Below the pieces are notes generated by a model. It saw only the letters and a list, made by a program, of their open reading frames with translations, had not been told where the DNA came from and made no database searches. Shown here in pieces: positions 15,818 to 46,809 of a DNA stretch of 64,000 bases (the stretch's first letter is position 1; the number at the start of each line of letters is the position of its first letter). Both the position numbers and the translations under genes were made by a program. Source of the DNA: Gammaproteobacteria bacterium (GTDB lineage Bacteria; Pseudomonadota; Gammaproteobacteria; Steroidobacterales; XN24); NCBI GenBank assembly GCA_020341735.1, contig CP070833.1, positions 2,387,527 through 2,451,526 on the forward strand, written 5' to 3'.

Positions 15818-16054
15818 ATGCCAAGCCAAGTGTTGCAGAAAGACGGGAATTCTAACCGGCCGAGCCGCCGGTCAGGCAAACCGTGCCGACCCTCCCGGAG
15901 CGATAGCCGACAGAAACATTCGGTAATTTCGACCTATTTACCTCCGTAACGCCTTTGATCTTGGGGTCTGGGAAGAAGACATCCACGGCGCTGAACACAC
16001 GCTGAAGTCTGCAGCCCTCACCTATACTCGCGGACATAGCAGAGGAATCTGTTG

Positions 16055-23157: not shown

Positions 23158-23493
23158 TTAATCACCGCATAGCGAGCTTGATTGCGTGCCCGGGCGCCGT
23201 ACCGGACGACATCTCGTGGCCCGTGACAGGTGAACGACGGCCCTCGGGGAAGAATCCATGCCGCCTCTCGAACCGAACTGACAAATCCTCACGTTGTCCG
23301 CATTCGAGCCCCGTCTGCAGCGGGCAACCAGAGCAATAGCAAGCGTGTTTTCAATGCAAATCGATGGCCGCGGGGTGCCAGGTGGCGATGGAGGCCTCCG
23401 TATGTATCCCGTGACAGCTCGGACCCGCCTGGCATCACTTTCCGGCCCCTGCAGCGAAGCGGGGGTTGCGATCACATCAGGAAACTCCGCACC

Positions 23494-24822
23494 TTGACGG
23501 ACACACGGAAACGCCAAAAGTCACGCGTGCCGACGACCAGGGTCGGCCGGATGTTGCGGCTTGGCCTGACGGCCGGCGAACTCGCGGCGGGAGGCGTCGT
23601 TGAGGGTCTGCGACGATTGGCCTCGTCCGATCAACAGGAGACGGTCAGTGCGCTCCTTACCGGCGCCAACGCCAAGCGGCTGGCCAAGCGCCTCTCGCAC
23701 ATGCGGGGTGCGGCGATGAAACTGGGACAGCTGCTGTCACTGGAGAGTGAGCATGTGTTGCCCAGGGAGTTCGCACAGGCGCTGGCCATCCTCGGAGACT
23801 CCGCGGACACCATGCCGGTCGCCCAGCTGAATCGCCTCCTGGGACGGGAGTACGGCAAAGGCTGGCATGCAAGGTTCGAGACCTTCGAGTACGAGCCGGT
23901 GGCGGCAGCCTCCATCGGACAGGTCCATCATGCACGTTCCCTCGATGGCAGGGAGCTGGCGTTGAAAATCCAGTATCCGGGGGTGGCCAGGAGCATCGAC
24001 AGCGACGTCAACAACATGGCCACGTTATTGCGCCTGTCGCGGATCCTCCCGGTGGAGATGGATATCTCCGGCATCGTCGCCGAAGCCAAGCGCCAACTCC
24101 GGCAGGAAGCTGACTACCTCCAGGAGGCTGACTACCTGGAGAGATATCGTCGACTTGTCGCGGATGAACCGCGCTTCAGGGTTCCGCAGGTGCATCGCGA
24201 CCTGACGACCCGCCGCATACTCGCAATGGACTATGTCCATGGCCAGCCGCTGACCTCCCTCGCAGGCCCCGACATTCCGCAGCGTCGTCGGGACCGGGTG
24301 GGTGCCTCCCTGTATCACCTGTTATTCAGGGAGCTGTTCGAATTCCGGGTGATGCAGACGGATCCGAATTTTGCCAATTACCTGGTGGACGAAGAGACCG
24401 CCGACATCGATCTGCTCGACTTCGGATCCACCGTGGACTTCAGCGAATCATTCGCTGATCGTTATCGGCGAATCTGCAGGGCGATGCTGGCGGATGACAT
24501 GGATTCGGTGCAAGCAGTCGCGCAGGAGATAGGCTACCTCCAGCAGGACGACCCGCCCGACCATGTCGCCCGGATAATCGAATTGCTGTTGATGATCTGC
24601 GAGCCTCTTCGACACCGGGGCGATTATGACTTCGGCGGTTCCGACCTGACTGCTCGTGCCCGCGATGCCGGCATGGATCTCGTCTTCCGCAGCGGACATT
24701 TCCGGGCGCCCCCTCCCGAGACGATCTTCCTGCACCGCAAGCTAATTGGCTCGTTCCTGCTGTGCGCACGTATCCGTGCCCGCGCAGACGTCCGCAGCCT
24801 CGTCGTGCCGTTCCTCGCCTGA
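23494..24822 (+). CDS. ABC1/UbiB-family atypical kinase
   Basis: Motifs GAAMKLGQLLS, AAASIGQVHHA, LALKIQYPGV, EADYLQEA, HGQPL, MQTDPNFANY, IDLLDFGS. The conserved N-terminal SRVPTTRVGRMLRLG segment lies upstream of the first ATG, so I propose the in-frame TTG at 23494. The start is uncertain. Confidence 0.82.
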   Translation: MTDTRKRQKSRVPTTRVGRMLRLGLTAGELAAGGVVEGLRRLASSDQQETVSALLTGANAKRLAKRLSHMRGAAMKLGQLLSLESEHVLPREFAQALAILGDSADTMPVAQLNRLLGREYGKGWHARFETFEYEPVAAASIGQVHHARSLDGRELALKIQYPGVARSIDSDVNNMATLLRLSRILPVEMDISGIVAEAKRQLRQEADYLQEADYLERYRRLVADEPRFRVPQVHRDLTTRRILAMDYVHGQPLTSLAGPDIPQRRRDRVGASLYHLLFRELFEFRVMQTDPNFANYLVDEETADIDLLDFGSTVDFSESFADRYRRICRAMLADDMDSVQAVAQEIGYLQQDDPPDHVARIIELLLMICEPLRHRGDYDFGGSDLTARARDAGMDLVFRSGHFRAPPPETIFLHRKLIGSFLLCARIRARADVRSLVVPFLA

Positions 24823-24930: not shown

Positions 24931-25329
24931 TCAGGGCCGGGCATCCAGCGTGACCCGGACCCTGATCCTGTCTCCGGGATCGAAGTCGAGTACACGCGTG
25001 TACTGCACGCCACCATAGCTGTAGTGCACTCGGTAACCGGTGATACGGGTCCGAGACTCGGCGATGCACTGACTACGTTCTGCCTTCTCCATCGCTTGCC
25101 CGATCGCGGCCGCCAGACCGGCGACATCAGACCCGCGCGATGGGACGGTCACTGGTGCACGTTGTTGACCGCAGAGCGGTCGAGTCTTGTCCGCTCTTTG
25201 GTAGGCATCGTCCTTCAGTAATTCCACGGCGGACACCGGCGCGTAATCGTAGAACACCTCCTCGGCCTGAGCCGCGGCACACAGAGCCAGGCCCAGTATC
25301 ACCAGGATACCGCTCGAGACGCTGTTCAT
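24931..25329 (-). CDS. Small secreted protein sharing the C-terminal motif of the YcfJ-like protein (last gene of the envelope operon)
   Basis: Signal peptide MNSVSSGILVILGLALCAAAQA. The C-terminal GYRVHYSYGGVQYTRVLDFDPGDRIRVRV parallels GYRVTYRYAGREYTTRTHEHPGKRIRVRV of the 31127-31684 product. 4-nt overlap with the upstream gene. Confidence 0.65.
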   Translation of the reverse strand: MNSVSSGILVILGLALCAAAQAEEVFYDYAPVSAVELLKDDAYQRADKTRPLCGQQRAPVTVPSRGSDVAGLAAAIGQAMEKAERSQCIAESRTRITGYRVHYSYGGVQYTRVLDFDPGDRIRVRVTLDARP

Positions 25330-26123
25330 CGTCTCCTCCCCGCCAGCGGAAATCCGGCCATCGTCAGGTGCCTGACGCCGGAGTCATACTCCTCTCGGCT
25401 ATCGAAAAGCATCACCACCCGGAAGCGGCCGACATCCTGCCGGAACCAGTCCAGCCTCAGTTCGGGCACACGCTCCTCCAGTACCGCAACGAATGACTCG
25501 GCGCGATAGGGCGCCCTGAACACCGCAACTTCCATCTGTCCATCCGTAACCGGCACGCCCGCCGGCTGCCCAGTCCGCCCGTCGCCCAGCACGTAACGCA
25601 GGTGACGATAGATATAGGCGCTGTACCACCTGGCCCCTTCCGGAATCGGATCACCGTCCGTCCCGATCCGGCCAGGTCCGTAGTTGTAGGCGGCCAGCGC
25701 TCGGTGCAGGTCGCCGTCGTATCGCTGAAGTAACTCTTTGAGGTAACGCGCGCCTGCCTCGACGTTCCTGCACGGTTCGTGCAGTTCTCGTACCCGGCTG
25801 AAGCCGAGGTGCCGACCCGTTCCCGGCCAGAGTATCTGCATCAGCCCGCGGGCATTCGCGGATGACACGGCATCCGGGTTGAAATTGCTTTCCCCCCTGG
25901 CGATGGCGGCAAGCAGGCTTATCGGCAAGTCGTGAGCGGCCGCCGCCCGGCGGAAGCACCGCTCGAAGGGCAGAGATACGGCAGGCTCCAGCTGTGTTTC
26001 AGTGGCGAGAAAGTCCTTCCAGGCCAATCCGGGCCCGCCCGGTCCGATCGCCCGGCCCCAGGCGGTCGATACAGCGACGGAGAGCAGCATGCATCCGAGG
26101 GCCTGAAGGAGCGCGACTTTCAC
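25326..26123 (-). CDS. Lytic transglycosylase (SLT domain) with a C-terminal SPOR-like domain
   Basis: Signal peptide. SLT motifs AIARGESNFNP, ARGLMQI, AAYNYGPG. C-terminal MEVAVFRAPYRAESFVAVLE...GRFRVVMLFDSREE resembles a SPOR repeat. GTG start overlaps the previous stop by 4 nt. Confidence 0.85.
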   Translation of the reverse strand: MKVALLQALGCMLLSVAVSTAWGRAIGPGGPGLAWKDFLATETQLEPAVSLPFERCFRRAAAAHDLPISLLAAIARGESNFNPDAVSSANARGLMQILWPGTGRHLGFSRVRELHEPCRNVEAGARYLKELLQRYDGDLHRALAAYNYGPGRIGTDGDPIPEGARWYSAYIYRHLRYVLGDGRTGQPAGVPVTDGQMEVAVFRAPYRAESFVAVLEERVPELRLDWFRQDVGRFRVVMLFDSREEYDSGVRHLTMAGFPLAGRRR

Positions 26124-26722
26124 AGGTCCCCTCCCTTCAGGCGCAGGCCGCTGATCGACTCTATCTCCTCGATTCGCTTTGCCCGGTCCTCATCCGCGGT
26201 CACCCGGAAAGATATGAGGTACCTCCCGGGCCCGGCCTTGTTCACCCTGAACTCCCTGCCCGTCGACGCTTGCAGGTGGCGCGCAAAGCCGTCGGCCGAG
26301 GCCTGGCTGCGGAAGGCGACGAAAAAAGTTTCCCATTCGGAATCCTTGGCGACCAATTCTGTTTCGTCACCGCGCGATCCCCCCGCGGCGGATGCTGCCC
26401 CGGGTGCCTCGAGTTCTCCTGCCTTCCCCGATGGCCCGGTCGATGTGGTGATGCTGCTCGACTCGCCGATGGACACCCCGCTCGGTGACTCTGCTTCCAG
26501 CCCGGGCCGGATCGAATCCTCGCCTGGCGACATGCCAGACTCAAGGGGGTGAGAGTCAAAGGCCCCTCCCGCCGGCTCGGGCAAAGCCTGTGGCGCAGGT
26601 GGAGCGGAGTCGATCACCACCCGATCCACTTTTGGCGCGGCCCCGATCGATGGGGCCCCGGCCATCAGATATGCAACCAGGCCGGTGAGTGCAGATCCTG
26701 TCAGAAAACCTAGAAAGCGCAT
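26120..26722 (-). CDS. Membrane-anchored protein with a low-complexity linker and C-terminal SPOR-like domain
   Basis: SD GGGAGGAAG then ATG 26722. N-terminal TM MRFLGFLTGSALTGLVAYLMAG. Pro/Ser/Gly-rich linker. C-terminal WETFFVAFRSQASADGFARHLQ...GRYLISFRVTADEDRAKRI (SPOR-like beta-alpha-beta-beta pattern). Confidence 0.7.
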   Translation of the reverse strand: MRFLGFLTGSALTGLVAYLMAGAPSIGAAPKVDRVVIDSAPPAPQALPEPAGGAFDSHPLESGMSPGEDSIRPGLEAESPSGVSIGESSSITTSTGPSGKAGELEAPGAASAAGGSRGDETELVAKDSEWETFFVAFRSQASADGFARHLQASTGREFRVNKAGPGRYLISFRVTADEDRAKRIEEIESISGLRLKGGDL

Positions 26723-26744
26723 TTTCTCTTCCTCCCAATCCGCA

Positions 26745-28157
26745 TCAGGGCTTGCCGGCCATACGGATGTCTGCCGGCGATGGGGTCGCCAGACCGCGCC
26801 ACACGATCTGGTTCGGGAAACTCTCCAGGCGGCGTTCGAGCGTTCGGAGTCGCGCCCGTGCCGGCGCGCCGCGCAGCCGCATGGGGTCGCAGCTCGCAGG
26901 AACTGCGGCGACTTCCGATGCAAGCGCATCGCCGGCTCGCTCCGTCTGCGCTCCGATAGCGAAAATCATGATCCGCTCGTCCGCTGCGGATGGCGGCAGG
27001 GTCAGACGGACCAGTTCGCCGTCCGCCGTGACCGACCCGGTGCCACAGCGTTCCGAATCCAGCCGTTGCAATCTGCCATCGCCAAGCACCATCAGGACCT
27101 CCAGTCGCTCAAGCTTGCCGGGCCTGACCTGGAGTGCGGGTTGCAGCGGCGATTGGCAAAACTCTTGTCCGCAACGTTGCCTGAGAAGGACGAAGCGGAC
27201 CTCTTCCAGCGCAGGGGGATCGGGCCGCGCCGGGACAGGGGGTCGAGACCGATCTCGCGGTTTGCTGCTGGCATAGGCGGACGCCCTGATGCTCGGCAGT
27301 TCGTCGGCTGGCCTGGTTGGCGCAAGACCGATCCAGACCTGCTCGAGGCCCTCGCCGAGGCGATGCCGCTCGGCAGTCATCACCAGGTCGGCATCAGACT
27401 CGCCGGTCGCGTGACGAATCAACCCCAGCCGACCGAGGTACTGGGACACCATGGTGGCCGCAGGCTGATCCCCGACGTCGGTCTTTTGCATGTTGATCCA
27501 TACGCGGGGCCTGTCCGCGGGATGGGCAAGCAACGCACACGCGACGGTGCGAGCAATTTCGGCCGCCAACAGATCCTCTTGATCAGCCGCGAAGGGAAGC
27601 CCACGCTGACCTCTCAGGTCATCACGGATTCCAGGCGTATCAAACCGCTCGCTGTCCTTGCGCGGGAGCACGCCGCTCCACTGGCGTGAGATGCCACTGA
27701 CCCAGCTTCGCTCTTCCAGGTCGAGAACTCGTACGCGTACGCGCACCTGCTGACCGCGGACCCGTGTCGCATCGAGTGCTATCAGATAACTTTCCTCGGG
27801 TGGCTGGCAGTGCAGATCGGTAGCCGTCGAACCACGCCGAAACTCGGGTGGCATGGGCCGCAACGCGATCTTTACGCCGGATCGGGCACCCAGCGCGCCC
27901 TCCAGATTGGCGGCCAGATCGGTCGATAACAGATCCGGCCTGGGGTGCTCGTCGTCGCCGTCGAATACCGTTACGCGGATGGGCTCGCCTTTGAAGCGCG
28001 GGTGGGTAGCCATGGTTTCGGTCAGCCACGGCGTCAGTTCTTCATCGAACCATCGGTCGAGGTCGGTCACAGCCAGCACAGGATTGGCCAGGAGCGCCAG
28101 GGCCATGACCAGTAGACTGCGGGGGAAAGCCGATATCGACCATGCTCTACCCATCAT
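26745..28157 (-). CDS. Secreted 470-aa hypothetical protein (periplasmic component of the envelope operon)
   Basis: SD GGGAGGTGA then ATGATG. Signal peptide ...LLVMALALLANPVLA/VT. No family recognised. 11-nt overlap with the upstream gene. Confidence 0.7.
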   Translation of the reverse strand: MMGRAWSISAFPRSLLVMALALLANPVLAVTDLDRWFDEELTPWLTETMATHPRFKGEPIRVTVFDGDDEHPRPDLLSTDLAANLEGALGARSGVKIALRPMPPEFRRGSTATDLHCQPPEESYLIALDATRVRGQQVRVRVRVLDLEERSWVSGISRQWSGVLPRKDSERFDTPGIRDDLRGQRGLPFAADQEDLLAAEIARTVACALLAHPADRPRVWINMQKTDVGDQPAATMVSQYLGRLGLIRHATGESDADLVMTAERHRLGEGLEQVWIGLAPTRPADELPSIRASAYASSKPRDRSRPPVPARPDPPALEEVRFVLLRQRCGQEFCQSPLQPALQVRPGKLERLEVLMVLGDGRLQRLDSERCGTGSVTADGELVRLTLPPSAADERIMIFAIGAQTERAGDALASEVAAVPASCDPMRLRGAPARARLRTLERRLESFPNQIVWRGLATPSPADIRMAGKP

Positions 28158-28851
28158 TCACCTCCCGGGTGACGTTGCCGGTGGCATCGATCACCAGCAC
28201 GCCGCCACCGCCCTTCGCCAGGTGATCCCGTAGCGCGGCGACCGTTCTGCCGGGAAGGGTCACACCCCATAGCGCGTCATCCGGGCCGGGGTAGCTGGCG
28301 CGCAGGAGTGTCGGGATAGTCTCCGGCGCCATTCTGTAAAAAGCCTCCGGTGCCGTTGCAGAAACGAAATCGACGCCGCGCCGCAGGTCCAGCCGCCGCA
28401 CTCCTGCCGCCGTCGCCACGAAAACAGCAGCTTCGCCGCGGGATACCATGCGCAGCAAGGCAGCGTCGGAAGCGAAACGCAGGAGCAGCCCCTGCTCTGC
28501 CGGTTGCGCCTCGTCAAGCTTGACCGCCGGCGACCTGGCCACGCTGACTTCAGGCATGGGCGCGGAACGCTTCTCCGCCGCCGGCATCGATCGAGTCTCC
28601 AAGGGTTCGACCACTGGTTCGGGTGGCGCCCGCCTCTGGGCGGTCGCCGCTTGGGGCGCTTCCGTCGCGACGACGGATTCCACAGGAACCGGCGACTGAT
28701 CGACCGGTTGTCTTGAGTGCTCCACCAGGCTCGATATCGCCACCAGGCATAGCGCCAGTATGGCCACGAACCGCATGACGTCGGCCTGTAGTTCCGTATC
28801 CGGCAGGCTCGCCGGCCCAGCATTGCCGATTGAGGATCGGGACTGCATCAT
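28147..28851 (-). CDS. Single-pass membrane protein with an ExbD/TolR-like N-terminal anchor, Pro/Ala-rich linker and unknown C-terminal domain
   Basis: SD GGAGGAG then ATGATG, overlapping the stop of the MotA/ExbB-like gene by 4 nt. ...LQADVMRFVAILALCLVAISSLV places Asp24 in a DVM context like ExbD ...FIDVMLVLLIIF. Linker: VPVESVVATEAPQAATAQRRAPPEPVVEP. Confidence 0.65.
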   Translation of the reverse strand: MMQSRSSIGNAGPASLPDTELQADVMRFVAILALCLVAISSLVEHSRQPVDQSPVPVESVVATEAPQAATAQRRAPPEPVVEPLETRSMPAAEKRSAPMPEVSVARSPAVKLDEAQPAEQGLLLRFASDAALLRMVSRGEAAVFVATAAGVRRLDLRRGVDFVSATAPEAFYRMAPETIPTLLRASYPGPDDALWGVTLPGRTVAALRDHLAKGGGGVLVIDATGNVTREVNDG

Positions 28852-29477
28852 CGCTCCTCCGCCCTGGTCTCCGGTGTTGCAAGCCGACGCTCGATGCCCG
28901 ACACGCTCACTCGCAGCGCGGCCAAATCCCTGTTTTGCTCCCGCTCGTAGTAGCGGGCAAGATCTGCACCGATGCTGAGTGCCTTCCAGGCCCGCATCAG
29001 GTAGCCACCGATGCCGCCGACGATGGTCGTCGAGAGCGCCAGCAAGATGCCACCGTCGACCATGCGCTCGAGTACCTGGACTCCACCCGATGCGCTGTCT
29101 GAAAGGCCCTCGACCAGGGCTCCACGCATCCCGATCGCCGTCCAGATAACGCCGACGCCGAAGAACAGACTGGTCCAGATGTCTGACAGATGATCGGCCT
29201 GTCTGACCGTCTCCGCCGGCGCCCGCCTGTCGATCGCGTGGCGGAGGCGCACGAGGCTGACGGCGAACAGCACCAGCAACATCAGGAAAGCCGGAATCGA
29301 GTACCCCAGGTTATGCCAAAGCCAGCTGACGGAGAGCCCGAAGGCATCTGTCATAACTGGAACGGCGTGCAAAGCTGCAGCCCCGTCCGGCACCCGCACG
29401 ACCAGGAGCGAAACCAGGGCGGAAGTCACTACCCCCGCCGACATGCCGATCAGGAAGTCCCTGGGTCGACTCGACAT
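28848..29477 (-). CDS. MotA/TolQ/ExbB-family proton-channel (stator-like) protein
   Basis: SD AGGAG then ATG 29477. 209 aa with four hydrophobic segments. Family-like signatures: IWTSLFFGVGVIWTAIGM (compare GLLGTVxGM) and GILLALSTTIVGGIGGYLM (compare ALxTTaxGL). C-terminal charged helix. Confidence 0.75.
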   Translation of the reverse strand: MSSRPRDFLIGMSAGVVTSALVSLLVVRVPDGAAALHAVPVMTDAFGLSVSWLWHNLGYSIPAFLMLLVLFAVSLVRLRHAIDRRAPAETVRQADHLSDIWTSLFFGVGVIWTAIGMRGALVEGLSDSASGGVQVLERMVDGGILLALSTTIVGGIGGYLMRAWKALSIGADLARYYEREQNRDLAALRVSVSGIERRLATPETRAEER

Positions 29478-29486
29478 AACTGACTC

Positions 29487-30038
29487 CTATCGACCGCCGG
29501 CGACGCAGGCTCGGCAGGTCGCCTCCAGGACCAGTTCAGTTTCTTTCAGCAATCTGTCTGCCCGGTAGTAACTCTCCCGATCGAGAGCCGCCTGCAGCAG
29601 ACCCCGTTCCTTGTCGGCCAGCTCGCTCTCCATATCCGCCATTACGCGTCCCTTGATGGGACAGGTCTGGGCGCAATTGTTGTAGTCCCCACGCAGTGAA
29701 ACGAACTTCACATTGAAGTACCGATTCCAGGTCTCCTGGGCCTGCCGGCGACTCAGCAATCCCTGGTCGCTGGTCCACAACAGGAAGTTGCTGAAGGCCT
29801 GCTTGTTGTCAGCGGTCGGGTCCCCGGCCGCCACGTCGATCAGTTGATCCATGTAACGATCGAAATGGGCCACGCAGCCGCCATCGAGTCGGGATTCGGC
29901 AGAAGCGATGGCCGCCGTCAGGTCGCGAGTTCCGGAAAGTTCGCACTTTGGCGTTGGCGTCGTGGCACACCCGGAAACAGCACCGATCGCTGTGAACAAG
30001 ACCGCGAGCGCGGCAGCCAATCTTGTGATATTCATCAT
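29487..30038 (-). CDS. Cys-rich lipoprotein, unknown function
   Basis: SD GAGAGGTGG then ATGATG at 30038. Lipobox MMNITRLAAALAVLFTAIGAVSGC. Seven further Cys residues in the mature part (PKCE, GGCV, NNCAQTCP, ATCRAC). Confidence 0.7.
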   Translation of the reverse strand: MMNITRLAAALAVLFTAIGAVSGCATTPTPKCELSGTRDLTAAIASAESRLDGGCVAHFDRYMDQLIDVAAGDPTADNKQAFSNFLLWTSDQGLLSRRQAQETWNRYFNVKFVSLRGDYNNCAQTCPIKGRVMADMESELADKERGLLQAALDRESYYRADRLLKETELVLEATCRACVAGGR

Positions 30039-30054
30039 GACATCCACCTCTCTG

Positions 30055-30894
30055 TCACCATTCCAGCGGGCTTTGATACGCCACCTCGCCGGCCCCCGGA
30101 GGCGGCCCGGCCAGTTCGACAACCTGCCCGGCCTCACCGAACAGGATCGATTTCACCCCGTCCACGACGGCCTGCATCTCCGGCGTGATAACGCCGAAGG
30201 ACTGATTGAGTTCCTCCAGCAAGGTCGCGCGCCCAATCTCCTCACGCGTCTGCGCGATCAGTGCGGAGGCTTCTTCCATGTCGAGGTAGATATCCGAGGC
30301 GACTACGGCTAGCGAGTGACCCGTGTTTCGCCCGGGCTGGGCGACGAGCTGGTAGTACTGGCGGAATCGCTGAGAAAGCCGCAGACCGGACCTGCCACGC
30401 AACTCTGGCTCGACGTTCGTTGACCCGTCGGGTTGCTGGCCGAGCAGCGTTTCCTGGAGCGTCCATGGCGTCATCTTCAGGCCCAGTTCGGCGCGCAGAC
30501 GCGTCTCCAGGCTGTCGCGCGTACTGTTGACGGCGCGCTCCATGTCCGGGAGGCGTTGAGACATGGTCTCCAACATCTCCATGTATGTCGCACCGAGCTG
30601 CCTGGATATCTGGGCGCAGCCCGGATCGTCGGTGGCGCCCTCGCATTTGCTCTGGATGTATAGCTGCTGCTGTCGATCCAGCCGGGCGATGATATCCTGC
30701 AGGCCGCTCTCCATCTCCTCGGCGACCTGACCTGTCTCTTTGATGTCCTCCAGCACGGTCGTGGGAAAAAGCTGGAGTGCAGGTCCCCGCGCCGCGCCCG
30801 TCAATAGCGGTAGTGTCGAAATAATGCATGCGGTGGCCATAGCCAGAGACGGCGCACCGTCGCGGCCGTTCCCGCATCGAGCATTCGGTTTCAT
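30055..30894 (-). CDS. Secreted, predicted alpha-helical hypothetical protein (first gene of the envelope operon)
   Basis: SD GGGAGG 5 nt before ATG 30894. Signal-like MATACIISTLPLLTGAARG. Glu/Gln/Leu-rich helical sequence. No family recognised. Confidence 0.65.
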   Translation of the reverse strand: MKPNARCGNGRDGAPSLAMATACIISTLPLLTGAARGPALQLFPTTVLEDIKETGQVAEEMESGLQDIIARLDRQQQLYIQSKCEGATDDPGCAQISRQLGATYMEMLETMSQRLPDMERAVNSTRDSLETRLRAELGLKMTPWTLQETLLGQQPDGSTNVEPELRGRSGLRLSQRFRQYYQLVAQPGRNTGHSLAVVASDIYLDMEEASALIAQTREEIGRATLLEELNQSFGVITPEMQAVVDGVKSILFGEAGQVVELAGPPPGAGEVAYQSPLEW

Positions 30895-30957
30895 CTAAGC
30901 CTCCCATGGCCCGGCGGGCCCTTCCTGTCGGCGAGACACAAAAGTAGCCCCGCCAAC

Positions 30958-30974
30958 CTGAACCGACGCTGAAC
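30958..30974 (-). promoter_or_regulatory. PhoP box (GTTCAG-N5-GTTCAG on the minus strand) upstream of the envelope operon
   Basis: The plus strand reads CTGAACcgacgCTGAAC, a perfect direct repeat with 11-bp phasing. On the minus strand it is followed after 11 nt by TACTTT (TAnnnT, -10-like, 30946-30941). It lies 64 nt upstream of ATG 30894. Confidence 0.7.
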
Positions 30975-31037: not shown

Positions 31038-31054
31038 GTTCAGCTTCGGTTCAG
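31038..31054 (+). promoter_or_regulatory. PhoP box (GTTCAGcttcgGTTCAG) upstream of the ycfJ-like / PepSY / phoPQ unit
   Basis: Perfect direct repeat, followed after 10 nt by TAGTCT (TAnnnT, 31065-31070). It lies 73 nt upstream of ATG 31127. It mirrors the box at 30958-30974. Confidence 0.7.
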
Positions 31055-31126
31055 GCCGCATGCGTAGTCTGGGAATCGCGAGGCGGGAGATCCCGGCTCA
31101 ACGGACAGCAGAAGAGGAGCACAAAG

Positions 31127-31684
31127 ATGATCCGCAAGACTCTCGTCCTGATGACGGCCGCCGCGGCGGTCGCCTTACCTTCCCTGGCCCTGGCCGGCCA
31201 TGATGGTTACCAGTACGCCAAAGTAGTGGACGTCGAACCGGTCTATCGGTACGTGAGCTACCAGGTTCCACAGAGAGAATGCTGGACAGAGGTCGAATAC
31301 GAACCACGGCCACGTGCCAGACACCGGACAAGTTCCACTCTGCCGACGATCGCGGGTGGCATTGTCGGTGGCGTTGTCGGCCGGCAGTTCGGCAGCGGCA
31401 GAGGCCGGGACGCCATGACCGTACTTGGCACCCTGATTGGCGCCGCCGTAGGCCACGACGCGAGCCATCGCACCAGCACCAGACACGCTGACTACGAGTA
31501 TGGCCGCAGCCGTGGTTATGAGGTTGAGCGCTGCGAAACTCGTTACATCACTCAGGAGGATCGGGAAATTGACGGCTATCGCGTCACTTACCGATATGCG
31601 GGCCGCGAATATACGACCAGGACGCACGAGCATCCCGGCAAGCGGATCCGTGTCCGGGTCGACGTGACACCGGCCGTCGCGTAA
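31127..31684 (+). CDS. YcfJ-like glycine-zipper 2TM-domain protein
   Basis: SD AGAGGAG then ATG 31127, then a signal peptide. Collinear with E. coli YcfJ as I recall it: YQYAKVVDVEPVY...PQRECW...IAGGIVGGVVGRQFGSGRGRDAMTVLGTLIGAAVG...RCETRY...GYRVTYRYAGREY...RIRV. Confidence 0.78.
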   Translation: MIRKTLVLMTAAAAVALPSLALAGHDGYQYAKVVDVEPVYRYVSYQVPQRECWTEVEYEPRPRARHRTSSTLPTIAGGIVGGVVGRQFGSGRGRDAMTVLGTLIGAAVGHDASHRTSTRHADYEYGRSRGYEVERCETRYITQEDREIDGYRVTYRYAGREYTTRTHEHPGKRIRVRVDVTPAVA

Positions 31685-31762
31685 ACCGATCGGGCCGTCA
31701 GCTCAACGTTTCATGCAGGGATGAAATTGCGTTGCCCCCACGCATGTCTGACAATGCCATGC

Positions 31763-32068
31763 ATGTCCCGAACCCTGCTGATAGCAGCGATGCTGGCGGT
31801 CCTGATCGCTTCCTCCCCGGCCTGGAGCGCGGTGCGGCCGGACTCTTCCGCTCATCACGCCCAGGCCTCCACATTTCGGCCTGCCGCGGATGAGGTTTCA
31901 CTCGACGAGGCCATTCGCACCGTCCGGGATGCCTACGGCGAAGTCACGATCCTGAAAGCAGAGACCCGTGGTCGTAACGGCCGGCGTGTCCATCGAGTCA
32001 AGTTCCTCACTGATTCCGGACGGGTGAAGACCGTCGAGGTCGATGCCCGTACCGGGGATCTCCGTTGA
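31763..32068 (+). CDS. PepSY-domain periplasmic protein
   Basis: Signal peptide MSRTLLIAAMLAVLIASSPAWSA. C-terminal LDEAIRTVRDAYGEVTILKAE...HRVKFLTDSGRVKTVEVDARTG is PepSY-like. Ends 4 nt before phoP. Confidence 0.7.
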   Translation: MSRTLLIAAMLAVLIASSPAWSAVRPDSSAHHAQASTFRPAADEVSLDEAIRTVRDAYGEVTILKAETRGRNGRRVHRVKFLTDSGRVKTVEVDARTGDLR

Positions 32069-32072
32069 GTCG

Positions 32073-32756
32073 ATGCGTGTCCTTGTCGTAGAGGACGAAG
32101 AAGCGCTGCGCGCCAGCATTGTCGCCGAGCTGCGCGGGCACGGCTATACCGTCGATGAGGCGTCTGACGGCGAGGAAGGACACTATTTCGGATCCGAATT
32201 CCATCCGGACGTCGCCATCGTTGATCTCGGCCTGCCTCGCCTTCCCGGCCTCGAGCTCATTCGCCGCCTCCGCGGCGAGGGACATGACTTCCCCATCCTG
32301 ATACTGACGGCCAGGGGACGGTGGGAGGAGAAAGTTGATGGACTCGAAGCGGGTGCCGACGACTATGTCGTCAAACCATTCCACATGGAGGAACTGCTGG
32401 CGCGGCTGAACGCTCTCCTGCGGCGCGCTGGGGGCTGGGCAAGCCCACGGCTGTGCAGCGGTCCGGTAAGCATCGACACCCGCGCCCAGACGGTCAGCGT
32501 GTCCAAGCGGCCAGTAGAGTTGACCGCCTTCGAGTATCGCCTGCTCGAATGCCTGCTGATGCGGACAGGTGAAGTCGTCTCCAAGACCGAGCTGACAGAG
32601 CGTCTCTACGAGCAGGATTTCGACCGCGATTCGAATGTCATCGAAGTCTTTGTAGGACGACTGCGCCGTAAGCTGGACCCTGACGGCAATCTGCGTCCTA
32701 TCGAAACTCTTCGCGGCAGAGGGTATCGATGGAGGCTCCCCAGGGAAAGCGCATGA
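32073..32756 (+). CDS. phoP: OmpR-family response regulator, PhoP-like
   Basis: MRVLVVEDEEALR...DVAIVDLGLP...FPILILTARGRWEEKVDGLEAGADDYVVKPFHMEELLARLNALLRR...NVIEVFVGRLRRKL...RGRGY. Very close to Pseudomonas PhoP as I remember it. PhoP boxes lie nearby. Confidence 0.8.
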   Translation: MRVLVVEDEEALRASIVAELRGHGYTVDEASDGEEGHYFGSEFHPDVAIVDLGLPRLPGLELIRRLRGEGHDFPILILTARGRWEEKVDGLEAGADDYVVKPFHMEELLARLNALLRRAGGWASPRLCSGPVSIDTRAQTVSVSKRPVELTAFEYRLLECLLMRTGEVVSKTELTERLYEQDFDRDSNVIEVFVGRLRRKLDPDGNLRPIETLRGRGYRWRLPRESA

Positions 32757-34114
32757 AAGTGGGCGGATCACTGAGCACTCGGGTGCTGACCGCAGCTACC
32801 TTGTTGCTGATGATCTTCTTCGGACTCGCATTCGCGGCTCTCGATATCGCATTCAGGCGCGCAGCCGAGCGGTCGCTGGAAGACGTGCTCGAGTCCCAGG
32901 TCCTGGGTCTGCTCGCCGCCGCAGACCCCGATCAGTCGGGTATGCTCAACCTGCCGCCAGACCTGCCGGAGCCGAAATTTTCTCGTCCGGGATCGGGCCT
33001 TTATGGTCGCCTCATCGATGACCAGGAAGAGACCGTCTGGATCTCCCGATCTGCGGTCGGCATGCGACTGCCGGCCTTCATACCAGCCACGCCCGGGCGC
33101 ATCGAATTTAGGCGTTTTTCGCTTGCCGACGGTACGGATCTGATGAGCGCAGCTCTCCGGATAGAGTGGGAATTCAGCGACGGACAGCTTGCGCCTTTCG
33201 TGTTCAGTGTCTCAAGCAGCCTGGACAGCCTGATGGCACAGGTGCGCCGTTATCGAAACTGGCTGAGCGGCGGATTCGCCGCCCTGGTTTTGATCCTGAT
33301 CGGTGCCCAGATTCTGGTGCTGCGCTTCTTGTTGCGGCCGTTACAACAGGCCGAAGAAGAAGTCCGTGAAATCGAGGCCGGCGCCAGACGGCGTCTGAGC
33401 GAGGGTTACCCGACGGAGATCGAGGCGCGGTCGAGCAGCGTCAACATGCTGATCGACAGCGAACGAGCACGCAGCGAGCGCTACCGTGAATCGCTGGATA
33501 ATCTCGCTCACAGTCTGAAGACGCCGCTGGCGGTCATTCGCACCCAGGCCGAGTCGCCGGACCGGATCGATCCGGATATCGTCGAGGAACAGGTCGCCAC
33601 CATGCAAGGAATCGTCGACTACCAGTTGCAGAGAGCCACCACCGGAGGCGCCCCTCTCGGCCGCAAGCACACGAAAGCCCTGCCCCTCGCCCGGTCGCTG
33701 CTCGACGCATTGAGCAAGGTCTATCGTGAGAAGCCGGTGCGGATAGACCGGGACCTCGAGTCGGATGCGGTGTTCCCCGGTGGTCGCGGCGACCTGACGG
33801 AGATCCTCGGTAACCTGCTCGACAACGCATTCAAGTTCTGCCGTCAACGGGTCCGTCTGTGCATCAGCACTGGATCTGCGGCGGTCGGCACTGGCGGGGG
33901 AATAGAGATCCTGGTCGAGGATGATGGCCCGGGACTTCCGGATACGAACTCGCCGAGGCTGCTCGAGCGGGGTGTGCGGGGCACTCAGAGGGCTCCCGGT
34001 CAGGGGATTGGACTGGCCGTGGTGCGGGATATCGTCGAAGCCTACGGGGGCGAGATCACTCTGGCGAGATCCACGCTCGGCGGCGCTGCTATCCGCGTGA
34101 CAATAGGTACCTGA
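32753..34114 (+). CDS. phoQ: Sensor histidine kinase, PhoQ-like
   Basis: ATGA start/stop overlap with phoP. Two TM segments flank a periplasmic domain. H-box LDNLAHSLKTPLAV. N, G1 and G2 boxes (LGNLLDNAFKF, VEDDGPGL, GQGIGLAVV). Confidence 0.8.
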   Translation: MKVGGSLSTRVLTAATLLLMIFFGLAFAALDIAFRRAAERSLEDVLESQVLGLLAAADPDQSGMLNLPPDLPEPKFSRPGSGLYGRLIDDQEETVWISRSAVGMRLPAFIPATPGRIEFRRFSLADGTDLMSAALRIEWEFSDGQLAPFVFSVSSSLDSLMAQVRRYRNWLSGGFAALVLILIGAQILVLRFLLRPLQQAEEEVREIEAGARRRLSEGYPTEIEARSSSVNMLIDSERARSERYRESLDNLAHSLKTPLAVIRTQAESPDRIDPDIVEEQVATMQGIVDYQLQRATTGGAPLGRKHTKALPLARSLLDALSKVYREKPVRIDRDLESDAVFPGGRGDLTEILGNLLDNAFKFCRQRVRLCISTGSAAVGTGGGIEILVEDDGPGLPDTNSPRLLERGVRGTQRAPGQGIGLAVVRDIVEAYGGEITLARSTLGGAAIRVTIGT

Positions 34115-46594: not shown

Positions 46595-46809
46595 CGTGCT
46601 CGTAAGTGCACATTGTCTGACAGCGAAGCGCAAGGCTTTTCTGCAAACGTTCCCCGTGCATGAGTATCTGCGGCTGCTCCCAAGCGCCCGGAGGCCGCAG
46701 TCTCTCGCGGTCGTTGCGAGGAGCCGTGGGAACATCGACCTCCCGGCCAGATGGGTCGCGACGACGTTCGTTTGCTGTCGCGACCGCTCGCTAAATGCTC
46801 ACGCCTCTA

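What the first reader, a model, noticed from the sequence alone, without database searches (positions are those of the whole stretch)
24931..30894. Eight-gene translationally coupled envelope operon built around a MotA/TolQ/ExbB-type stator; Tol-Pal-like gene logic but no recognisable Tol, Ton or Mot partners
Seen in sequence:
- Eight same-strand genes have strong SD sequences. Junctions are 4-nt overlaps (three), one 11-nt overlap, or gaps of 9-22 nt.
- The order is: secreted helical protein (279 aa); Cys-rich lipoprotein; 209-aa MotA/TolQ/ExbB-like 4-TM protein; single-pass protein with an ExbD/TolR-like Asp-containing anchor plus a Pro/Ala-rich linker; 470-aa secreted unknown; TM + linker + SPOR-like protein; SLT lytic transglycosylase with a SPOR-like tail; small secreted protein with a YcfJ-type C-terminal motif.
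- A perfect PhoP box sits upstream of the operon.

Established knowledge: MotA/ExbB/TolQ proteins with an Asp-bearing partner form proton-driven motors. SPOR domains bind denuded septal glycan. The canonical Tol-Pal order is TolQ, TolR, TolA, TolB, Pal, CpoB.

Inference: the order here is channel, anchor/linker, large periplasmic protein, peptidoglycan-binding proteins. That parallels Tol-Pal, but five of the eight products match no family I can recognise. I suggest a distinct PMF-powered, peptidoglycan-directed envelope machine induced through PhoPQ. I cannot tell whether it has already been described.
Basis: partly seen in the sequence, partly recalled or inferred. Interest (0 to 1): 0.85.

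Follow-up and report, generated by a model that had tools for sequence, protein, structure and literature searches.

The report
PhoP-controlled orphan cell-envelope operon
This is a real, widely conserved but undescribed operon of cell-envelope proteins in marine-sediment Gammaproteobacteria, apparently switched on by a PhoP-type regulator; it contains a cell-wall-cutting enzyme and a membrane protein pair that may be, but is not shown to be, a very divergent proton-driven motor.

Summary
Eight minus-strand genes lie at 24931-30894 with the stated junctions and Shine-Dalgarno sites.

- **Conservation:** Genes g1-g7 keep the same order in about 80 examined genomes of Woeseiaceae and related Gammaproteobacteria. 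g8 is accessory. Distant, rearranged variants (44-62% GC) keep subsets of these genes, always including the g3-g4 pair.
- **Regulation:** The upstream PhoP box is real. Two exact Pseudomonas-type boxes sit in the divergent promoter region next to a PhoP/PhoQ-like two-component system. A box lies upstream of g1 in 45 of 73 related loci.
- **Firm family assignment:** Only g7, an SLT lytic transglycosylase, matches a known family with confidence.
- **SPOR-like tails:** The C-terminal tails of g6 and g7 are homologous to each other and only weakly SPOR-like.
- **Motor claim:** This is unproven. g3 fails the Pfam, NCBIfam and PDB profile tests. The support is a set of sub-significant hints that all point to TolQ/MotA/ZorA/ExbB. 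g4 has an invariant Asp at the start of its membrane helix, but its periplasmic domain resembles no solved structure.
- **Tol-Pal comparison:** No TolA, TolB or Pal equivalents were found.

Verdict: a new, uncharacterised PhoP-regulon envelope module that acts on peptidoglycan. It is possibly powered by a cryptic MotAB-like pair (about 45%). Moderately interesting.

The parts
30958..30974 (-). PhoP-type box GTTCAGCGTCGGTTCAG, facing the g1 operon, 64-80 nt upstream of the g1 ATG. It is followed after 11 nt by a -10-like TACTTT (30941-30946).
   Evidence: Exact match to the consensus. A box with at most 1 mismatch lies on the g1 strand within 200 nt upstream of g1 in 45 of 73 related loci, against 15 hits elsewhere in 983 kb. 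The -10 assignment is an inference from reading.
30055..30894 (-). g1: 279-aa secreted (signal-peptide) protein with one conserved Cys pair. It is the most conserved product and an orphan family.
   Evidence: 70% mean column identity over 39 orthologues. 1708 homologues, all 'hypothetical', with no Pfam domain. No PDB sequence match. Only scattered weak Pfam hits.
29487..30038 (-). g2: 183-aa lipoprotein (lipobox VSG-C, +2 Ala) with six further invariant Cys. Orphan family.
   Evidence: invariant C24, C32, C55, C122, C126, C175, C178. No Pfam, NCBIfam or PDB match. Also present next to g3 in distant variants L094, L095 and L098.
28848..29477 (-). g3: 209-aa membrane protein with four helices, N-in and C-in by the positive-inside rule. 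TM3 and TM4 are nearly invariant (FFGxGVIWTAIGMR ... DGGILLALSTTIxGGxGGYLMR). It is a candidate, very divergent MotA/TolQ/ExbB-like subunit.
   Evidence: Alignment. AlphaFold2 (AF2) model pLDDT 81.5. Foldseek top hits are TolQ/MotA/ZorA/ExbB but at E of 0.27 or worse. hhalign P=0.0067 with weak controls. HMM tests negative.
28147..28851 (-). g4: 234-aa single-pass protein. Its membrane helix carries the near-invariant motif LQ[TA]D[VI]MRF. Residues about 48-120 form a Pro/Ala-rich disordered linker. Residues 121-234 form a confidently folded periplasmic domain with no known structural neighbour. The start codon overlaps the g3 stop (ATGA).
   Evidence: AF2 model. Foldseek against PDB: best E=0.64, probability 0.09 or less. 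No PDB, Pfam or NCBIfam hit. The motif is kept in distant variants.
26745..28157 (-). g5: 470-aa secreted protein, fast-evolving, with conserved Cys. The C-terminal part is weakly DUF4384-like.
   Evidence: No PDB match. DUF4384 hit in 2 of 38 members, best E=0.0024. g5-like lipoproteins occur in distant variants.
26120..26722 (-). g6: 200-aa protein with an N-terminal membrane helix, a low-complexity linker and a C-terminal domain of about 70 aa that is SPOR-like.
   Evidence: SPOR (PF05036) is the commonest weak Pfam hit (7 of 35 members, best E=0.076). The domain is homologous to the g7 tail (hhalign probability 87%, P=3.8e-6).
25326..26123 (-). g7: 265-aa secreted family-1 lytic transglycosylase (SLT domain at residues 56-155; motifs ES, GLMQ and AYNYG) with a C-terminal SPOR-like domain.
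   Evidence: PF01464 E=3.7e-28. All 39 orthologues hit SLT, and 7 of 39 weakly hit SPOR. Glu78 and Ser79 are invariant. Tail homology to g6.
24931..25329 (-). g8: 132-aa secreted protein with a YcfJ-type C-terminal domain and no glycine zipper. It is accessory and not part of the conserved core.
   Evidence: NCBIfam PRK11280 E=1.6e-4 over residues 84-124. Found in only 11 of 80 loci.
31038..31054 (+). Second exact PhoP-type box GTTCAGCTTCGGTTCAG, facing the divergent operon. It is followed after 10 nt by a -10-like TAGTCT.
   Evidence: Paired divergent boxes are conserved in close relatives L001-L007.
31127..34114 (+). Divergent operon: YcfJ-like glycine-zipper protein (31127-31684), PepSY protein (31721-32068), PhoP-like response regulator (ORF 32043-32756, probable start 32073) and PhoQ-like histidine kinase (32729-34114). 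This is the likely regulator of both promoters.
   Evidence: Pfam. NCBIfam best hits are PhoP at 1.2e-67 and PhoQ at 5.7e-57 (next best kinase family 2.8e-25), both below the equivalog cut-offs.

Best explanation
The region is a lineage-wide but undescribed cell-envelope operon belonging to a PhoP-type regulon.

**Shown**
- Seven genes (g1-g7) form a conserved, translationally coupled unit.
- All products are exported or membrane-anchored.
- g7 is an SLT-family lytic transglycosylase.
- g6 and g7 share a related C-terminal domain.
- g3 and g4 are always adjacent, and their membrane helices are their most conserved parts.
- A PhoP-consensus direct repeat sits at the -35 position of the promoter in most lineages.

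**Inferred mechanism**
1. When the neighbouring PhoQ-like kinase is activated (by analogy, low Mg2+, cationic peptides or acid), the PhoP-like regulator binds the box and switches the operon on.
2. g3 and g4 form an inner-membrane complex through their conserved helices.
3. This complex most likely works as a very divergent MotAB/TolQR-type ion-driven unit. The invariant g4 Asp24 would face the invariant g3 Thr113 and Thr150/151.
4. The long flexible linker and novel periplasmic domain of g4 would reach periplasmic g1, g5 and the probably outer-membrane lipoprotein g2.
5. g6 would anchor the assembly to peptidoglycan through its SPOR-like domain.
6. g7 would cut glycan strands locally.

The net role would be stress-induced remodelling or re-tethering of peptidoglycan and outer membrane.
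For: - **Operon anatomy:** gene order, overlaps and Shine-Dalgarno sites read directly.
- **Synteny:** g1-g7 order in essentially all of 80 loci, drawn from 339 GTDB species that carry a g3 relative. The flanks in Woeseiaceae are unrelated housekeeping genes.
- **Rearranged distant variants:** L095 (44% GC) carries relatives of g1-g7 in a different order; the g1 match is weak (hmmsearch E=8e-6). L098 keeps g2, g3, g4, g7 and a g5-like gene. L100 has the g3-g4 pair next to a response regulator and a kinase with a PhoQ-type HAMP domain. These argue for functional linkage rather than mere vertical synteny.
- **PhoP control:** two exact boxes in the window; conserved placement in 45 of 73 loci against a background of 0.0015 per 200-nt window; published consensus; adjacent PhoP/PhoQ-like system.
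- **Lytic transglycosylase:**
- **Paralogous SPOR-like domains:**
- **g3-g4 pairing:** ATGA overlap; near-invariant g4 helix with Asp24; invariant polar and Gly residues in g3 TM3 and TM4.
- **MotA-like hints, none significant alone:** Foldseek ranks 1-9 are TolQ, MotA, ZorA and ExbB, with ZorA at probability 0.82. hhalign puts the two conserved MotA_ExbB motifs in register at P=0.0067, the highest of 24 profile comparisons run. ZorA2 at E=0.098. PF01618 at E=0.43 in one member. Variant L100 reads GGILEALTTT against TolQ PGIAEALIAT.
- **Variable linker:** the g4 linker is Pro-rich here and a ~100-residue stretch of heptad-like charged sequence (read by eye as a probable coiled coil, not modelled) in L098. 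TolA domain II varies in the same way (PMC12204202).
Against: - No HMM-level link of g3 to MotA_ExbB.
- Foldseek E-values are not significant and TM-scores are only 0.25-0.31.
- The hhalign score of 24.3 is only modestly above controls. Block-shuffled templates gave mean 18.7, sd 2.9, with 4 of 60 scoring at least 24.3. An unrelated ExbB-versus-FeoB comparison gave 22.2.
- g3 lacks the large cytoplasmic domain of MotA, ExbB and TolQ.
- g4 Asp24 is followed by invariant Arg27 ahead of the hydrophobic core. It may therefore sit at the membrane boundary rather than inside the membrane as in MotB, ExbD and TolR (read).
- The g4 periplasmic domain has no ExbD/TolR/OmpA similarity.
- The SPOR assignment is below Pfam thresholds and was not recovered against PDB sequences.
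- The roles of g1, g2 and g5 are pure inference.
- PhoP binding and induction were not tested experimentally.
Confidence: 0.5

Rival explanations
1. Same operon and same PhoP control, but with no motor. g3 and g4 would be a passive inner-membrane scaffold or sensor pair that positions the lytic transglycosylase g7 and the SPOR-like anchor g6. The cluster would then be an ordinary stress-induced module for peptidoglycan maintenance.
For: - Every profile-HMM test for MotA_ExbB, ExbD or MotB failed.
- Structural and profile-profile hints are within reach of controls.
- g4 Asp24 is paired with invariant Arg27 at the helix start.
- The g4 periplasmic domain is unlike any known stator subunit.
Against: - Independent weak methods all pick the same superfamily out of thousands.
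- The membrane helices are the most conserved parts of g3 and g4, with invariant Thr, Gly and Asp. This is unusual for a passive anchor.
- The g3-g4 pair persists in every distant variant.
Confidence: 0.33
2. A Zorya-like or other anti-phage or conflict system: a MotAB-like envelope sensor coupled to effectors.
For: - Weak ZorA2 hit at E=0.098. ZorA gave the highest Foldseek probability, 0.82.
- Distant variants L095 and L100 sit among caspase-like Peptidase_C14, DUF4384 and PEGA genes, which often occur in conflict systems.
Against: - No PADLOC model matched at a significant level, and no ZorB/C/D or cytoplasmic effector such as a nuclease was found.
- All products are extracytoplasmic.
- The cluster occupies one syntenic position between housekeeping genes across a whole family, which is not the patchy island distribution typical of defence systems.
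- GC content is unremarkable.
- g3 lacks the long ZorA tail.
Confidence: 0.07
3. The assembly platform of an unrecognised trans-envelope apparatus (secretion or a surface appendage). g7 would be the dedicated transglycosylase that makes the hole, as VirB1, IagB or FlgJ do.
For: - The g7 SLT domain scores against specialised transglycosylases: BB0259 at 1e-20 and IagB at 1.5e-8.
- There is a weak VirB8 hit in 3 of 65 g4 homologues.
Against: - There is no ATPase, secretin, pilin, needle or rod component, and no outer-membrane barrel, in or beside the cluster.
- General housekeeping Slt/Mlt models score similarly.
- The VirB8 hits are at E of 0.1 or worse.
Confidence: 0.1

Closest known systems
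Tol-Pal system (TolQ-TolR-TolA-TolB-Pal-CpoB)
   Same: - An envelope operon with a multi-pass membrane protein followed by a single-pass partner that has an acidic residue at the start of its helix.
- A further protein built as membrane helix, extended linker and globular domain (g6).
- A large periplasmic protein, a lipoprotein, and a link to peptidoglycan processing.
   Different: - No sequence or profile match to TolQ, TolR, TolA, TolB, Pal or CpoB.
- g6 lacks the TolA/TonB SHLS/His motif.
- The g4 periplasmic domain is not TolR-like.
- Gene order differs: g1 and g2 come first.
- It includes a lytic transglycosylase and is PhoP-regulated.
MotAB/PomAB flagellar stators and other 5:2 motors (ExbBD, ZorAB, AglRQS, GldLM)
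   Same: - g3 has MotA-like topology: four helices, N-in and C-in.
- Its last two helices carry Gly- and Thr-rich invariant motifs that align in register with the MotA_ExbB core.
- Foldseek's best PDB hits are these proteins.
- The partner gene is adjacent with overlapping stop and start codons and carries an invariant Asp.
   Different: - It fails all family HMMs.
- The loop between TM2 and TM3 is only about 25 residues, where MotA has a large cytoplasmic domain in that position (ExbB and TolQ, with three helices, have theirs after TM1); g3 has no such domain.
- The conserved Pro of MotA and ExbB is absent.
- In g4 the Asp is followed by an invariant Arg.
- There is no OmpA-like or ExbD-like periplasmic domain.
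- Stoichiometry is unknown.
RlpA (SPOR-domain lytic transglycosylase) and SPOR proteins FtsN/DamX/DedD
   Same: - g7 combines a lytic transglycosylase with a SPOR-like domain, as RlpA does.
- g6 has the FtsN/DedD layout: membrane helix, linker, then C-terminal SPOR-like domain.
   Different: - The g7 catalytic domain is the SLT (goose-lysozyme-like) type, not the RlpA double-psi barrel.
- The SPOR similarity is below the Pfam threshold.
- Septal localisation and binding to denuded glycan are untested.
Pseudomonas aeruginosa oprH-phoP-phoQ and its PhoP regulon
   Same: - Identical binding-site consensus, GTTCAG-N5-RTTCAG.
- A self-regulated operon in which small envelope-protein genes precede phoP-phoQ.
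- The target is an envelope function.
   Different: - The leading genes are YcfJ-like and PepSY, not OprH.
- The regulator and kinase score below the NCBIfam equivalog cut-offs for PhoP and PhoQ.
- The g1-g8 target operon has no counterpart in described PhoP regulons, as far as the searched literature shows.
Newly proposed motor-coupled force transducers (vWA-domain families next to tolQ/tolR-like genes; PMC12204202)
   Same: The concept is the same: orphan envelope proteins with a membrane helix (some with the proton-binding Asp), a disordered or helical linker and a non-TonB globular domain, encoded beside motor genes.
   Different: - Those systems have recognisable TolQ-like genes and vWA domains.
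- Here neither is recognisable.
- The partners here are a lytic transglycosylase and SPOR-like proteins.

Membership tests
MotA/TolQ/ExbB proton channel family (PF01618) | Match to the family profile at or near the curated threshold | tested here: not met
   - No Pfam or NCBIfam hit for g3.
- One of 32 homologues hit PF01618, at E=0.43.
- Family profiles against PDB sequences found no TolQ, ExbB, MotA, PomA or ZorA.
- A profile search of 1.84 billion proteins gave only 244 representatives.
MotA/TolQ/ExbB proton channel family (PF01618) | Structural similarity of the subunit fold (helical hairpin lining the pore plus a C-terminal cytoplasmic helix) | tested here: inconclusive
   The AF2 model has pLDDT 81.5. 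Foldseek ranks 1-9 are TolQ, MotA, ZorA and ExbB, but with E 0.27-0.52 and TM-scores 0.25-0.31. The best partial match is ZorA: 89 columns, rmsd 5.1 A, probability 0.82.
MotA/TolQ/ExbB proton channel family (PF01618) | Conserved pore-lining Thr residues in the last two helices (TolQ T145 and T178; ExbB T148 and T181) | tested here: inconclusive
   T113, T150 and T151 are invariant. hhalign pairs T151 with TolQ T178, but the register in the preceding helix is ambiguous between runs. hhalign gave P=0.0067, against block-shuffle controls in which 4 of 60 scored as high.
MotA/TolQ/ExbB proton channel family (PF01618) | 5:2 assembly with a B subunit, and ion-driven function | not testable with these tools
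   No multimer prediction was available. This needs AF-Multimer/AF3, cryo-EM or genetics.
MotB/ExbD/TolR (B subunits) | Invariant Asp near the cytoplasmic end of the single membrane helix, with the gene adjacent to the A subunit | tested here: met
   The motif LQ[TA]D[VI]MRF is present in all correctly called orthologues and in distant variants. The g4 start overlaps the g3 stop. Caveat: an invariant Arg three residues later is not seen in MotB, ExbD or TolR.
MotB/ExbD/TolR (B subunits) | Profile match (ExbD PF02472, or MotB plus OmpA) or an ExbD/TolR-like or OmpA-like periplasmic fold | tested here: not met
   - No Pfam, NCBIfam or PDB hit.
- hhalign against an ExbD/TolR alignment gave P=0.072 over 28 residues only.
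- Foldseek of the confident C-terminal domain model found no neighbour (best E=0.64).
Tol-Pal system | TolA (SHLS/His membrane helix), TolB beta-propeller, Pal OmpA-like lipoprotein, CpoB | tested here: not met
   - The g6 helix has no His or SHLS motif.
- g5, g2 and g1 have no TolB, Pal or CpoB profile match.
- E. coli TolQ, TolR and TolA find nothing in the window or the loci by tblastn.
SLT family-1 lytic transglycosylase (PF01464) | Profile match above threshold, with the catalytic Glu-Ser motif and the GLMQ and AYNxG motifs | tested here: met
   97.9 bits against a cut-off of 21.3. All 39 orthologues match. E78, S79, M95, Q96 and A145-Y146-N147-Y148-G149 are invariant.
SPOR domain (PF05036) | Profile match at threshold; binding to denuded glycan | tested here: inconclusive
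   SPOR is the most recurrent weak hit for g6 (7 of 35, best E=0.076) and for the g7 tail (7 of 39, best E=0.013). The window copies themselves do not hit. The two domains are homologous to each other. The combined profile found no SPOR structure in PDB sequences. Binding was not testable.
PhoP regulon (Pseudomonas type) | Direct repeat GTTCAG-N5-RTTCAG at the promoter | tested here: met
   Exact boxes at 30958-30974 and 31038-31054. Published consensus. Conserved upstream of g1 in 45 of 73 loci.
PhoP regulon (Pseudomonas type) | Cognate PhoP/PhoQ proteins, with binding and induction | tested here: inconclusive
   The best NCBIfam hits are PhoP (227.7 bits, cut-off 336) and PhoQ (193.5 bits, cut-off 497). 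Both are below the equivalog thresholds. Binding and induction are not testable here.
Zorya (ZorAB plus ZorC/D/E) | ZorA with a long C-terminal tail, ZorB with a peptidoglycan-binding domain, and effector genes | tested here: not met
   Only ZorA2 at E=0.098 over the membrane core. No other PADLOC hit for any of the eight proteins. g3 is 209 aa and has no tail.
YcfJ / glycine-zipper 2TM (PRK11280, PF05433) | Glycine-zipper segment plus the C-terminal domain | tested here: not met
   g8 matches only profile positions 127-167 (E=1.6e-4, 21.6 bits against a cut-off of 99) and has no glycine zipper. The divergent gene at 31127-31684 does have both parts.

The most novel reading that the evidence does not exclude
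g3 and g4 would be a previously unrecognised, extremely divergent branch of the 5:2 ion-driven rotary motor superfamily.
- The A subunit would be minimal: four helices and no cytoplasmic domain.
- The B subunit would carry a new periplasmic fold on a long flexible linker.
- Together with orphan partners g1, g2 and g5, a SPOR-like anchor and a dedicated lytic transglycosylase, it would form a new PhoPQ-induced, proton-powered machine.
- That machine would remodel or re-tether peptidoglycan and outer membrane in Woeseiaceae, among the most abundant bacteria of marine sediments.
- Rearranged relatives in other lineages are associated with caspase and DUF4384 genes.
Probability: 0.4. Interest if true: 0.8.

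Novelty: new variant of a known kind. Interest (0 to 1): 0.58.

Why it matters
- **A possible hidden motor family.** If the g3-g4 pair is an ion-driven unit, it extends the MotAB/ExbBD/TolQR/ZorAB/GldLM superfamily to a family that current profile libraries cannot see. It would add a new output: peptidoglycan cutting and binding under PhoPQ control. Recent surveys state that more such motors remain to be found (PMC12204202, PMC12505986). Surveys that start from MotA_ExbB profile matches could not detect this one, because g3 does not match those profiles.
- **Value without the motor.** The finding still defines five or six orphan protein families. These include a confidently modelled periplasmic domain with no structural neighbour. 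They form one functional module with a clear regulatory handle, in an ecologically dominant and little-studied lineage.
- **A regulon prediction.** It gives a phylogenetically footprinted PhoP regulon member outside the enteric and pseudomonad models.

Tried and rejected
**Family and sequence searches**
- Pfam, NCBIfam and PADLOC scans of all eight products gave only SLT, plus a partial YcfJ hit.
- Scans of whole ortholog sets at permissive E-values gave only weak SPOR, DUF4384, VirB8 and Ppnp signals. The Ppnp/'YaiE' label that JGI gives some g1 homologues looks spurious.
- Profile searches of PDB sequences for g1, g2, g3 (whole and core), g4, g5, g6 and the combined SPOR-like domain found nothing meaningful.
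- The exhaustive profile search for g3 did not bridge to MotA_ExbB.

**Tests of the motor link**
- I built an ExbB/TolQ alignment and an ExbD/TolR alignment, 13 sequences each, from E. coli and plasmid records for hhalign.
- The g3 result is suggestive only.
- The g4 result is negative.
- Foldseek of the g4 model gave no neighbour.

**Other hypotheses considered**
- Phage lysis cassette or mobile element: rejected on syntenic housekeeping flanks, normal GC and signal peptides.
- Internal terminators or sigma-70 promoters: the counts do not exceed shuffled sequence.
- Rfam: nothing in the window.
- Literature searches found no description of this cluster.

**Not done**
- Structures of g1, g2 and g5 (structure cap reached).

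Full report
**1. Observation**

The ORF list and the minus-strand sequence show eight consecutive minus-strand genes:

| Gene | Coordinates | Length |
|---|---|---|
| g1 | 30055-30894 | 279 aa |
| g2 | 29487-30038 | 183 aa from the ATG that gives MMNITRL... and the lipobox VSG-C |
| g3 | 28848-29477 | 209 aa |
| g4 | 28147-28851 | 234 aa |
| g5 | 26745-28157 | 470 aa |
| g6 | 26120-26722 | 200 aa from MRFLGFL... |
| g7 | 25326-26123 | 265 aa, GTG start |
| g8 | 24931-25329 | 132 aa |

Each start has a GGAGG/GGGAGG-type ribosome-binding site. Base composition is uniform with the surroundings. Simple scans give no excess of internal terminators or sigma-70 promoters.

**2. Conservation**

- A g3 search in the 5.8-billion-protein collection returned 2855 homologues. 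All are unnamed and have no Pfam domain. They come from Gammaproteobacteria and Woeseiaceae metagenome-assembled genomes.
- The window protein is identical to one from 'MAG: Gammaproteobacteria bacterium', on a contig of 2.9 Mb.
- A scan of one genome per GTDB species found relatives in 339 species. The 80 best loci were fetched.
- tblastn of the eight window proteins on these loci shows g1-g2-g3-g4-g5-(g6)-g7 in the same order and strand wherever the contig reaches. The counts are g1 78, g2 80, g3 80, g4 78, g5 74, g6 52 and g7 62 of 80. Most gaps in these counts are contig ends or weak g6 similarity.
- g8 is found in only 11 loci, and the divergent YcfJ-like gene in 12.
- By mean column identity, g1 (70%), g2 (68%) and g7 (66%) are the most conserved. 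g3 follows at 49% (a different sequence set). g5 (45%), g4 (36%) and g6 (28%) evolve fast outside short segments.
- In Woeseiaceae the flanks are unrelated housekeeping genes: FeoB, a deoxynucleoside kinase, HPRT and a CDF transporter. The unit is therefore g1-g7.

**3. Distant variants**

I looked up the weakest representatives from the exhaustive g3 profile search.

- **L095** (44% GC) has g1-like, g2-like, g3, g4, g7-like SLT, g6-like and g5-like genes in that different order. A PEGA/DUF4384 lipoprotein and caspase-like genes lie around them.
- **L098** (62% GC) has g2, g3 and g4, then SLT and a g5-like lipoprotein. Its g4 linker is a ~100-residue stretch of heptad-like charged sequence, read by eye as a probable coiled coil, instead of a Pro-rich segment.
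- **L100** (50% GC) has g3-g4 next to a caspase, a DUF4384 protein, a PepSY protein, an OmpR-type regulator and a kinase with a PhoQ-type HAMP domain.

Subsets of the gene set, and in L095 the whole of g1-g7, are kept despite rearrangement. This is good evidence that the products work together.

**4. Regulation**

- A second exact copy, GTTCAGCTTCGGTTCAG, lies at 31038-31054 on the other strand. It faces the divergent operon.
- The window has 4 matches with at most 1 mismatch, against 0.23 expected.
- The motif equals the published P. aeruginosa PhoP consensus GTTCAGNNNNNRTTCAG (PMC3156716).
- Each box is followed after 10-11 nt by a TAnnnT hexamer (TACTTT and TAGTCT). That is the layout of a PhoP-activated promoter in which the box replaces the -35 element. 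This layout is my inference.
- The divergent operon encodes a YcfJ-like glycine-zipper protein, a PepSY protein, a response regulator and a histidine kinase.
- The best NCBIfam hits for the regulator and kinase are PhoP (1.2e-67) and PhoQ (5.7e-57; the next kinase family scores 2.8e-25). Both are below the equivalog cut-offs.
- Across related loci, 45 of 73 have a box with at most 1 mismatch on the g1 strand within 200 nt upstream of g1. Typical distances are 64-125 nt.
- Only 15 hits occur anywhere else in 983 kb, and several of those are the paired divergent boxes. The background is 0.0015 per 200-nt window.
- The loci are related to each other, so these are not independent events. Even so, the site survives where the surrounding non-coding DNA and the neighbouring genes differ.
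- PhoP-type control is therefore well supported. Binding and induction remain untested.

**5. The products**

- **g7** is the only firm family match: the SLT domain PF01464 (E=3.7e-28), with the catalytic Glu-Ser and the GLMQ and AYNYG motifs invariant.
- **g7 tail and g6 C-terminus.** These two domains are homologous to each other (hhalign probability 87%, P=3.8e-6). For both, SPOR is the most recurrent weak Pfam hit (7 of 35 members, best E=0.076; 7 of 39 members, best E=0.013). The window copies do not hit SPOR, and a combined profile did not retrieve SPOR structures from PDB sequences. 'SPOR-like' is plausible but not established.
- **g8** shares only the C-terminal 40 residues of YcfJ (E=1.6e-4).
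- **g1, g2, g4 and g5** match nothing in Pfam, NCBIfam, PADLOC or PDB sequences. The exceptions are a weak DUF4384 signal in two g5 homologues and scattered noise.
- **g1** has 1708 homologues, all unnamed.

**6. Is g3 a MotA/TolQ/ExbB protein?**

*Negative results*
- No Pfam or NCBIfam hit.
- PF01618 appears in 1 of 32 homologues, at E=0.43.
- Whole-length and core profiles find no stator subunit among PDB sequences.
- The exhaustive profile search ends at 244 representatives (208 below 1e-10), without reaching the very large MotA_ExbB family.

*Positive hints*
- The AF2 model (pLDDT 81.5) has helices at 4-27, 38-57, 60-83, 88-125 and 132-200.
- Its best Foldseek hits in the PDB are TolQ, TolQ, MotA, ZorA, ExbB, TolQ, TolQ, ExbB and TolQ. 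Their E-values are 0.27-0.52 and TM-scores 0.25-0.31. ZorA gives probability 0.82 over 89 columns.
- PADLOC ZorA2 scores E=0.098.
- hhalign of a 195-sequence g3 alignment against a 13-sequence ExbB/TolQ alignment (built) aligns the whole protein. The two conserved cores are in register: FFGxGVIWTAIGMR with APxxGLFGTVxGI, and DGGILLALSTTIxGG with APGIAEALxATAIGL. The result is P=0.0067, probability 5.7%.

*Controls*
- Reversed profiles score 16.
- Block-shuffled templates score 18.7 +/- 2.9, and 4 of 60 reach 24.3.
- Eight unrelated families score 10-19 against g3.
- ExbB against FeoB scores 22.2.

The signal is the highest of all comparisons run, but it is not clearly separated from the controls. 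My reading is that several partly independent methods select the same superfamily, yet none is significant. The family-membership test by profile is failed. The claim 'works like MotA' stays open at roughly even odds.

By the positive-inside rule g3 has MotA-like topology. Its cytoplasmic loop, however, is only about 25 residues long.

**7. Is g4 a MotB/ExbD/TolR-like partner?**

- Its most conserved part is the membrane helix.
- The motif LQ[TA]D[VI]MRF[MV]AIL is essentially invariant in 77 orthologues and in the distant variants.
- The g4 start codon overlaps the g3 stop codon.
- The motif includes an invariant Asp24, the hallmark of B subunits.
- An invariant Arg27 follows, before the 19-residue hydrophobic core. 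The Asp may therefore lie at the cytoplasmic boundary rather than inside the membrane, which differs from the canonical proteins.
- AF2 gives a helix at 17-47, a disordered Pro/Ala-rich stretch at 48-120 and a confident alpha/beta domain at 121-234 with pLDDT about 95.
- Foldseek finds no neighbour for this domain in the PDB (best E=0.64, probability 0.09 or less).
- hhalign against ExbD/TolR is negative.
- g4 is therefore not a member of the ExbD, TolR or MotB families. It shares only the adjacent-gene and Asp-helix logic.

**8. Tol-Pal comparison**

- g6 has a TolA/TonB-like layout of helix, linker and globular domain, but no SHLS/His motif.
- g5 shows no TolB signal and g2 no Pal/OmpA signal.
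- E. coli TolQ, TolR and TolA detect nothing in the window or the loci.
- The parallel is an analogy of architecture, not homology.
- I could not check whether these genomes also carry a canonical Tol-Pal system.

**9. Best explanation and rivals**

*Best explanation (confidence 0.5).* This is a PhoP-regulon envelope module in which a g3-g4 inner-membrane complex, probably a cryptic MotAB/TolQR-like ion-driven unit, is coupled to three things:
- a SPOR-like peptidoglycan anchor (g6);
- a dedicated SLT transglycosylase with a SPOR-like tail (g7);
- three orphan periplasmic or lipoprotein partners (g1, g2, g5).

Its role would be remodelling or re-tethering the wall and outer membrane under PhoQ-sensed stress.

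*Status of each step*
- Shown: operon structure, conservation, box conservation, SLT identity, g6/g7 domain homology, g3-g4 linkage and the invariant residues.
- Inferred: ion-driven mechanism, stoichiometry, partner contacts, the inducing signal and the physiological role.

*Rivals*
- The same module without a motor (0.33).
- An unrecognised trans-envelope apparatus with a dedicated transglycosylase (0.10).
- A Zorya-like defence system (0.07). The last is suggested by the ZorA hints and by caspase/DUF4384 neighbours in distant variants. It is contradicted by core-genome synteny and the lack of cytoplasmic effectors.

**10. Novelty and score**

- Literature searches found no description of this cluster.
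- Recent surveys of 5:2 motors and force transducers start from recognisable MotA/TolQ homologues. They note that more systems remain to be found.
- I rate this a new variant of a known kind: an envelope operon with a lytic transglycosylase and a possible stator pair, in which most parts are orphan families.
- Interest is 0.58. The operon is real, abundant in nature, clearly regulated and directly testable, but the exciting part, a hidden motor family, is unproven.

Noticed in passing
window 31038-34114 (+): The divergent operon (YcfJ-like glycine-zipper protein, PepSY protein, PhoP-like regulator, PhoQ-like kinase) has its own exact PhoP box. It is therefore probably self-regulated, like oprH-phoP-phoQ in Pseudomonas. 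This arrangement with paired boxes is conserved in the closest relatives, L001-L007.
   Followed up: partly
window 15991-16007 (-) and 45633-45649 (-): Two further PhoP-box-like sites have one mismatch each. The first lies about 160 nt upstream of the minus-strand ORF 15008-15829 and could mark another regulon member. The second lies inside ORF 45551-46735.
   Followed up: no
window 28147-28509 (g4 residues 121-234): This is a confidently modelled alpha/beta periplasmic domain (pLDDT about 95) with no structural neighbour in the PDB by Foldseek (best E=0.64). It may be a new fold. It was not compared with AlphaFold DB.
   Followed up: partly
L095 1-14219; L100 1534-3630: In distant variants of the cluster, the g3-g4 core sits among caspase-like Peptidase_C14 genes, DUF4384 and PEGA lipoproteins and an anti-sigma-like membrane protein. 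The recurrence of caspase and DUF4384 genes in two lineages is unexplained.
   Followed up: partly
L098 1555-2451: In this variant the g4 homologue replaces the Pro-rich linker with a ~100-residue stretch of heptad-like charged sequence, which I read by eye as a probable coiled coil (no structure or coiled-coil prediction was run). TolA domain II shows the same Pro-rich versus helical alternation across bacteria.
   Followed up: no
L100 179-832: This distant g3 homologue reads DGGILEALTTTIIGG in TM4. That restores the Glu of the TolQ/ExbB motif GIAEAL, which is Leu in the window protein.
   Followed up: no
L092 1-2268 (Bernardetia plasmid): An annotated SPOR-domain protein gene lies directly upstream of a canonical MotA/TolQ/ExbB gene and an ExbD gene. 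This is a precedent for a SPOR protein encoded beside a recognised motor pair.
   Followed up: no
g1 homologues P0192, P0201, P0214, P0227: JGI names some g1 homologues 'YaiE (UPF0345 family)'. The corresponding Pfam family, Ppnp, hits 13 of 39 orthologues only weakly (best E=0.037), so the label looks spurious.
   Followed up: partly
window 23230-24822 (+) and 22798-23157 (+): Downstream and convergent to g8 are an ABC1/UbiB-type atypical kinase and an EthD-domain protein. These are unrelated to the cluster and are not conserved next to it in Woeseiaceae.
   Followed up: partly
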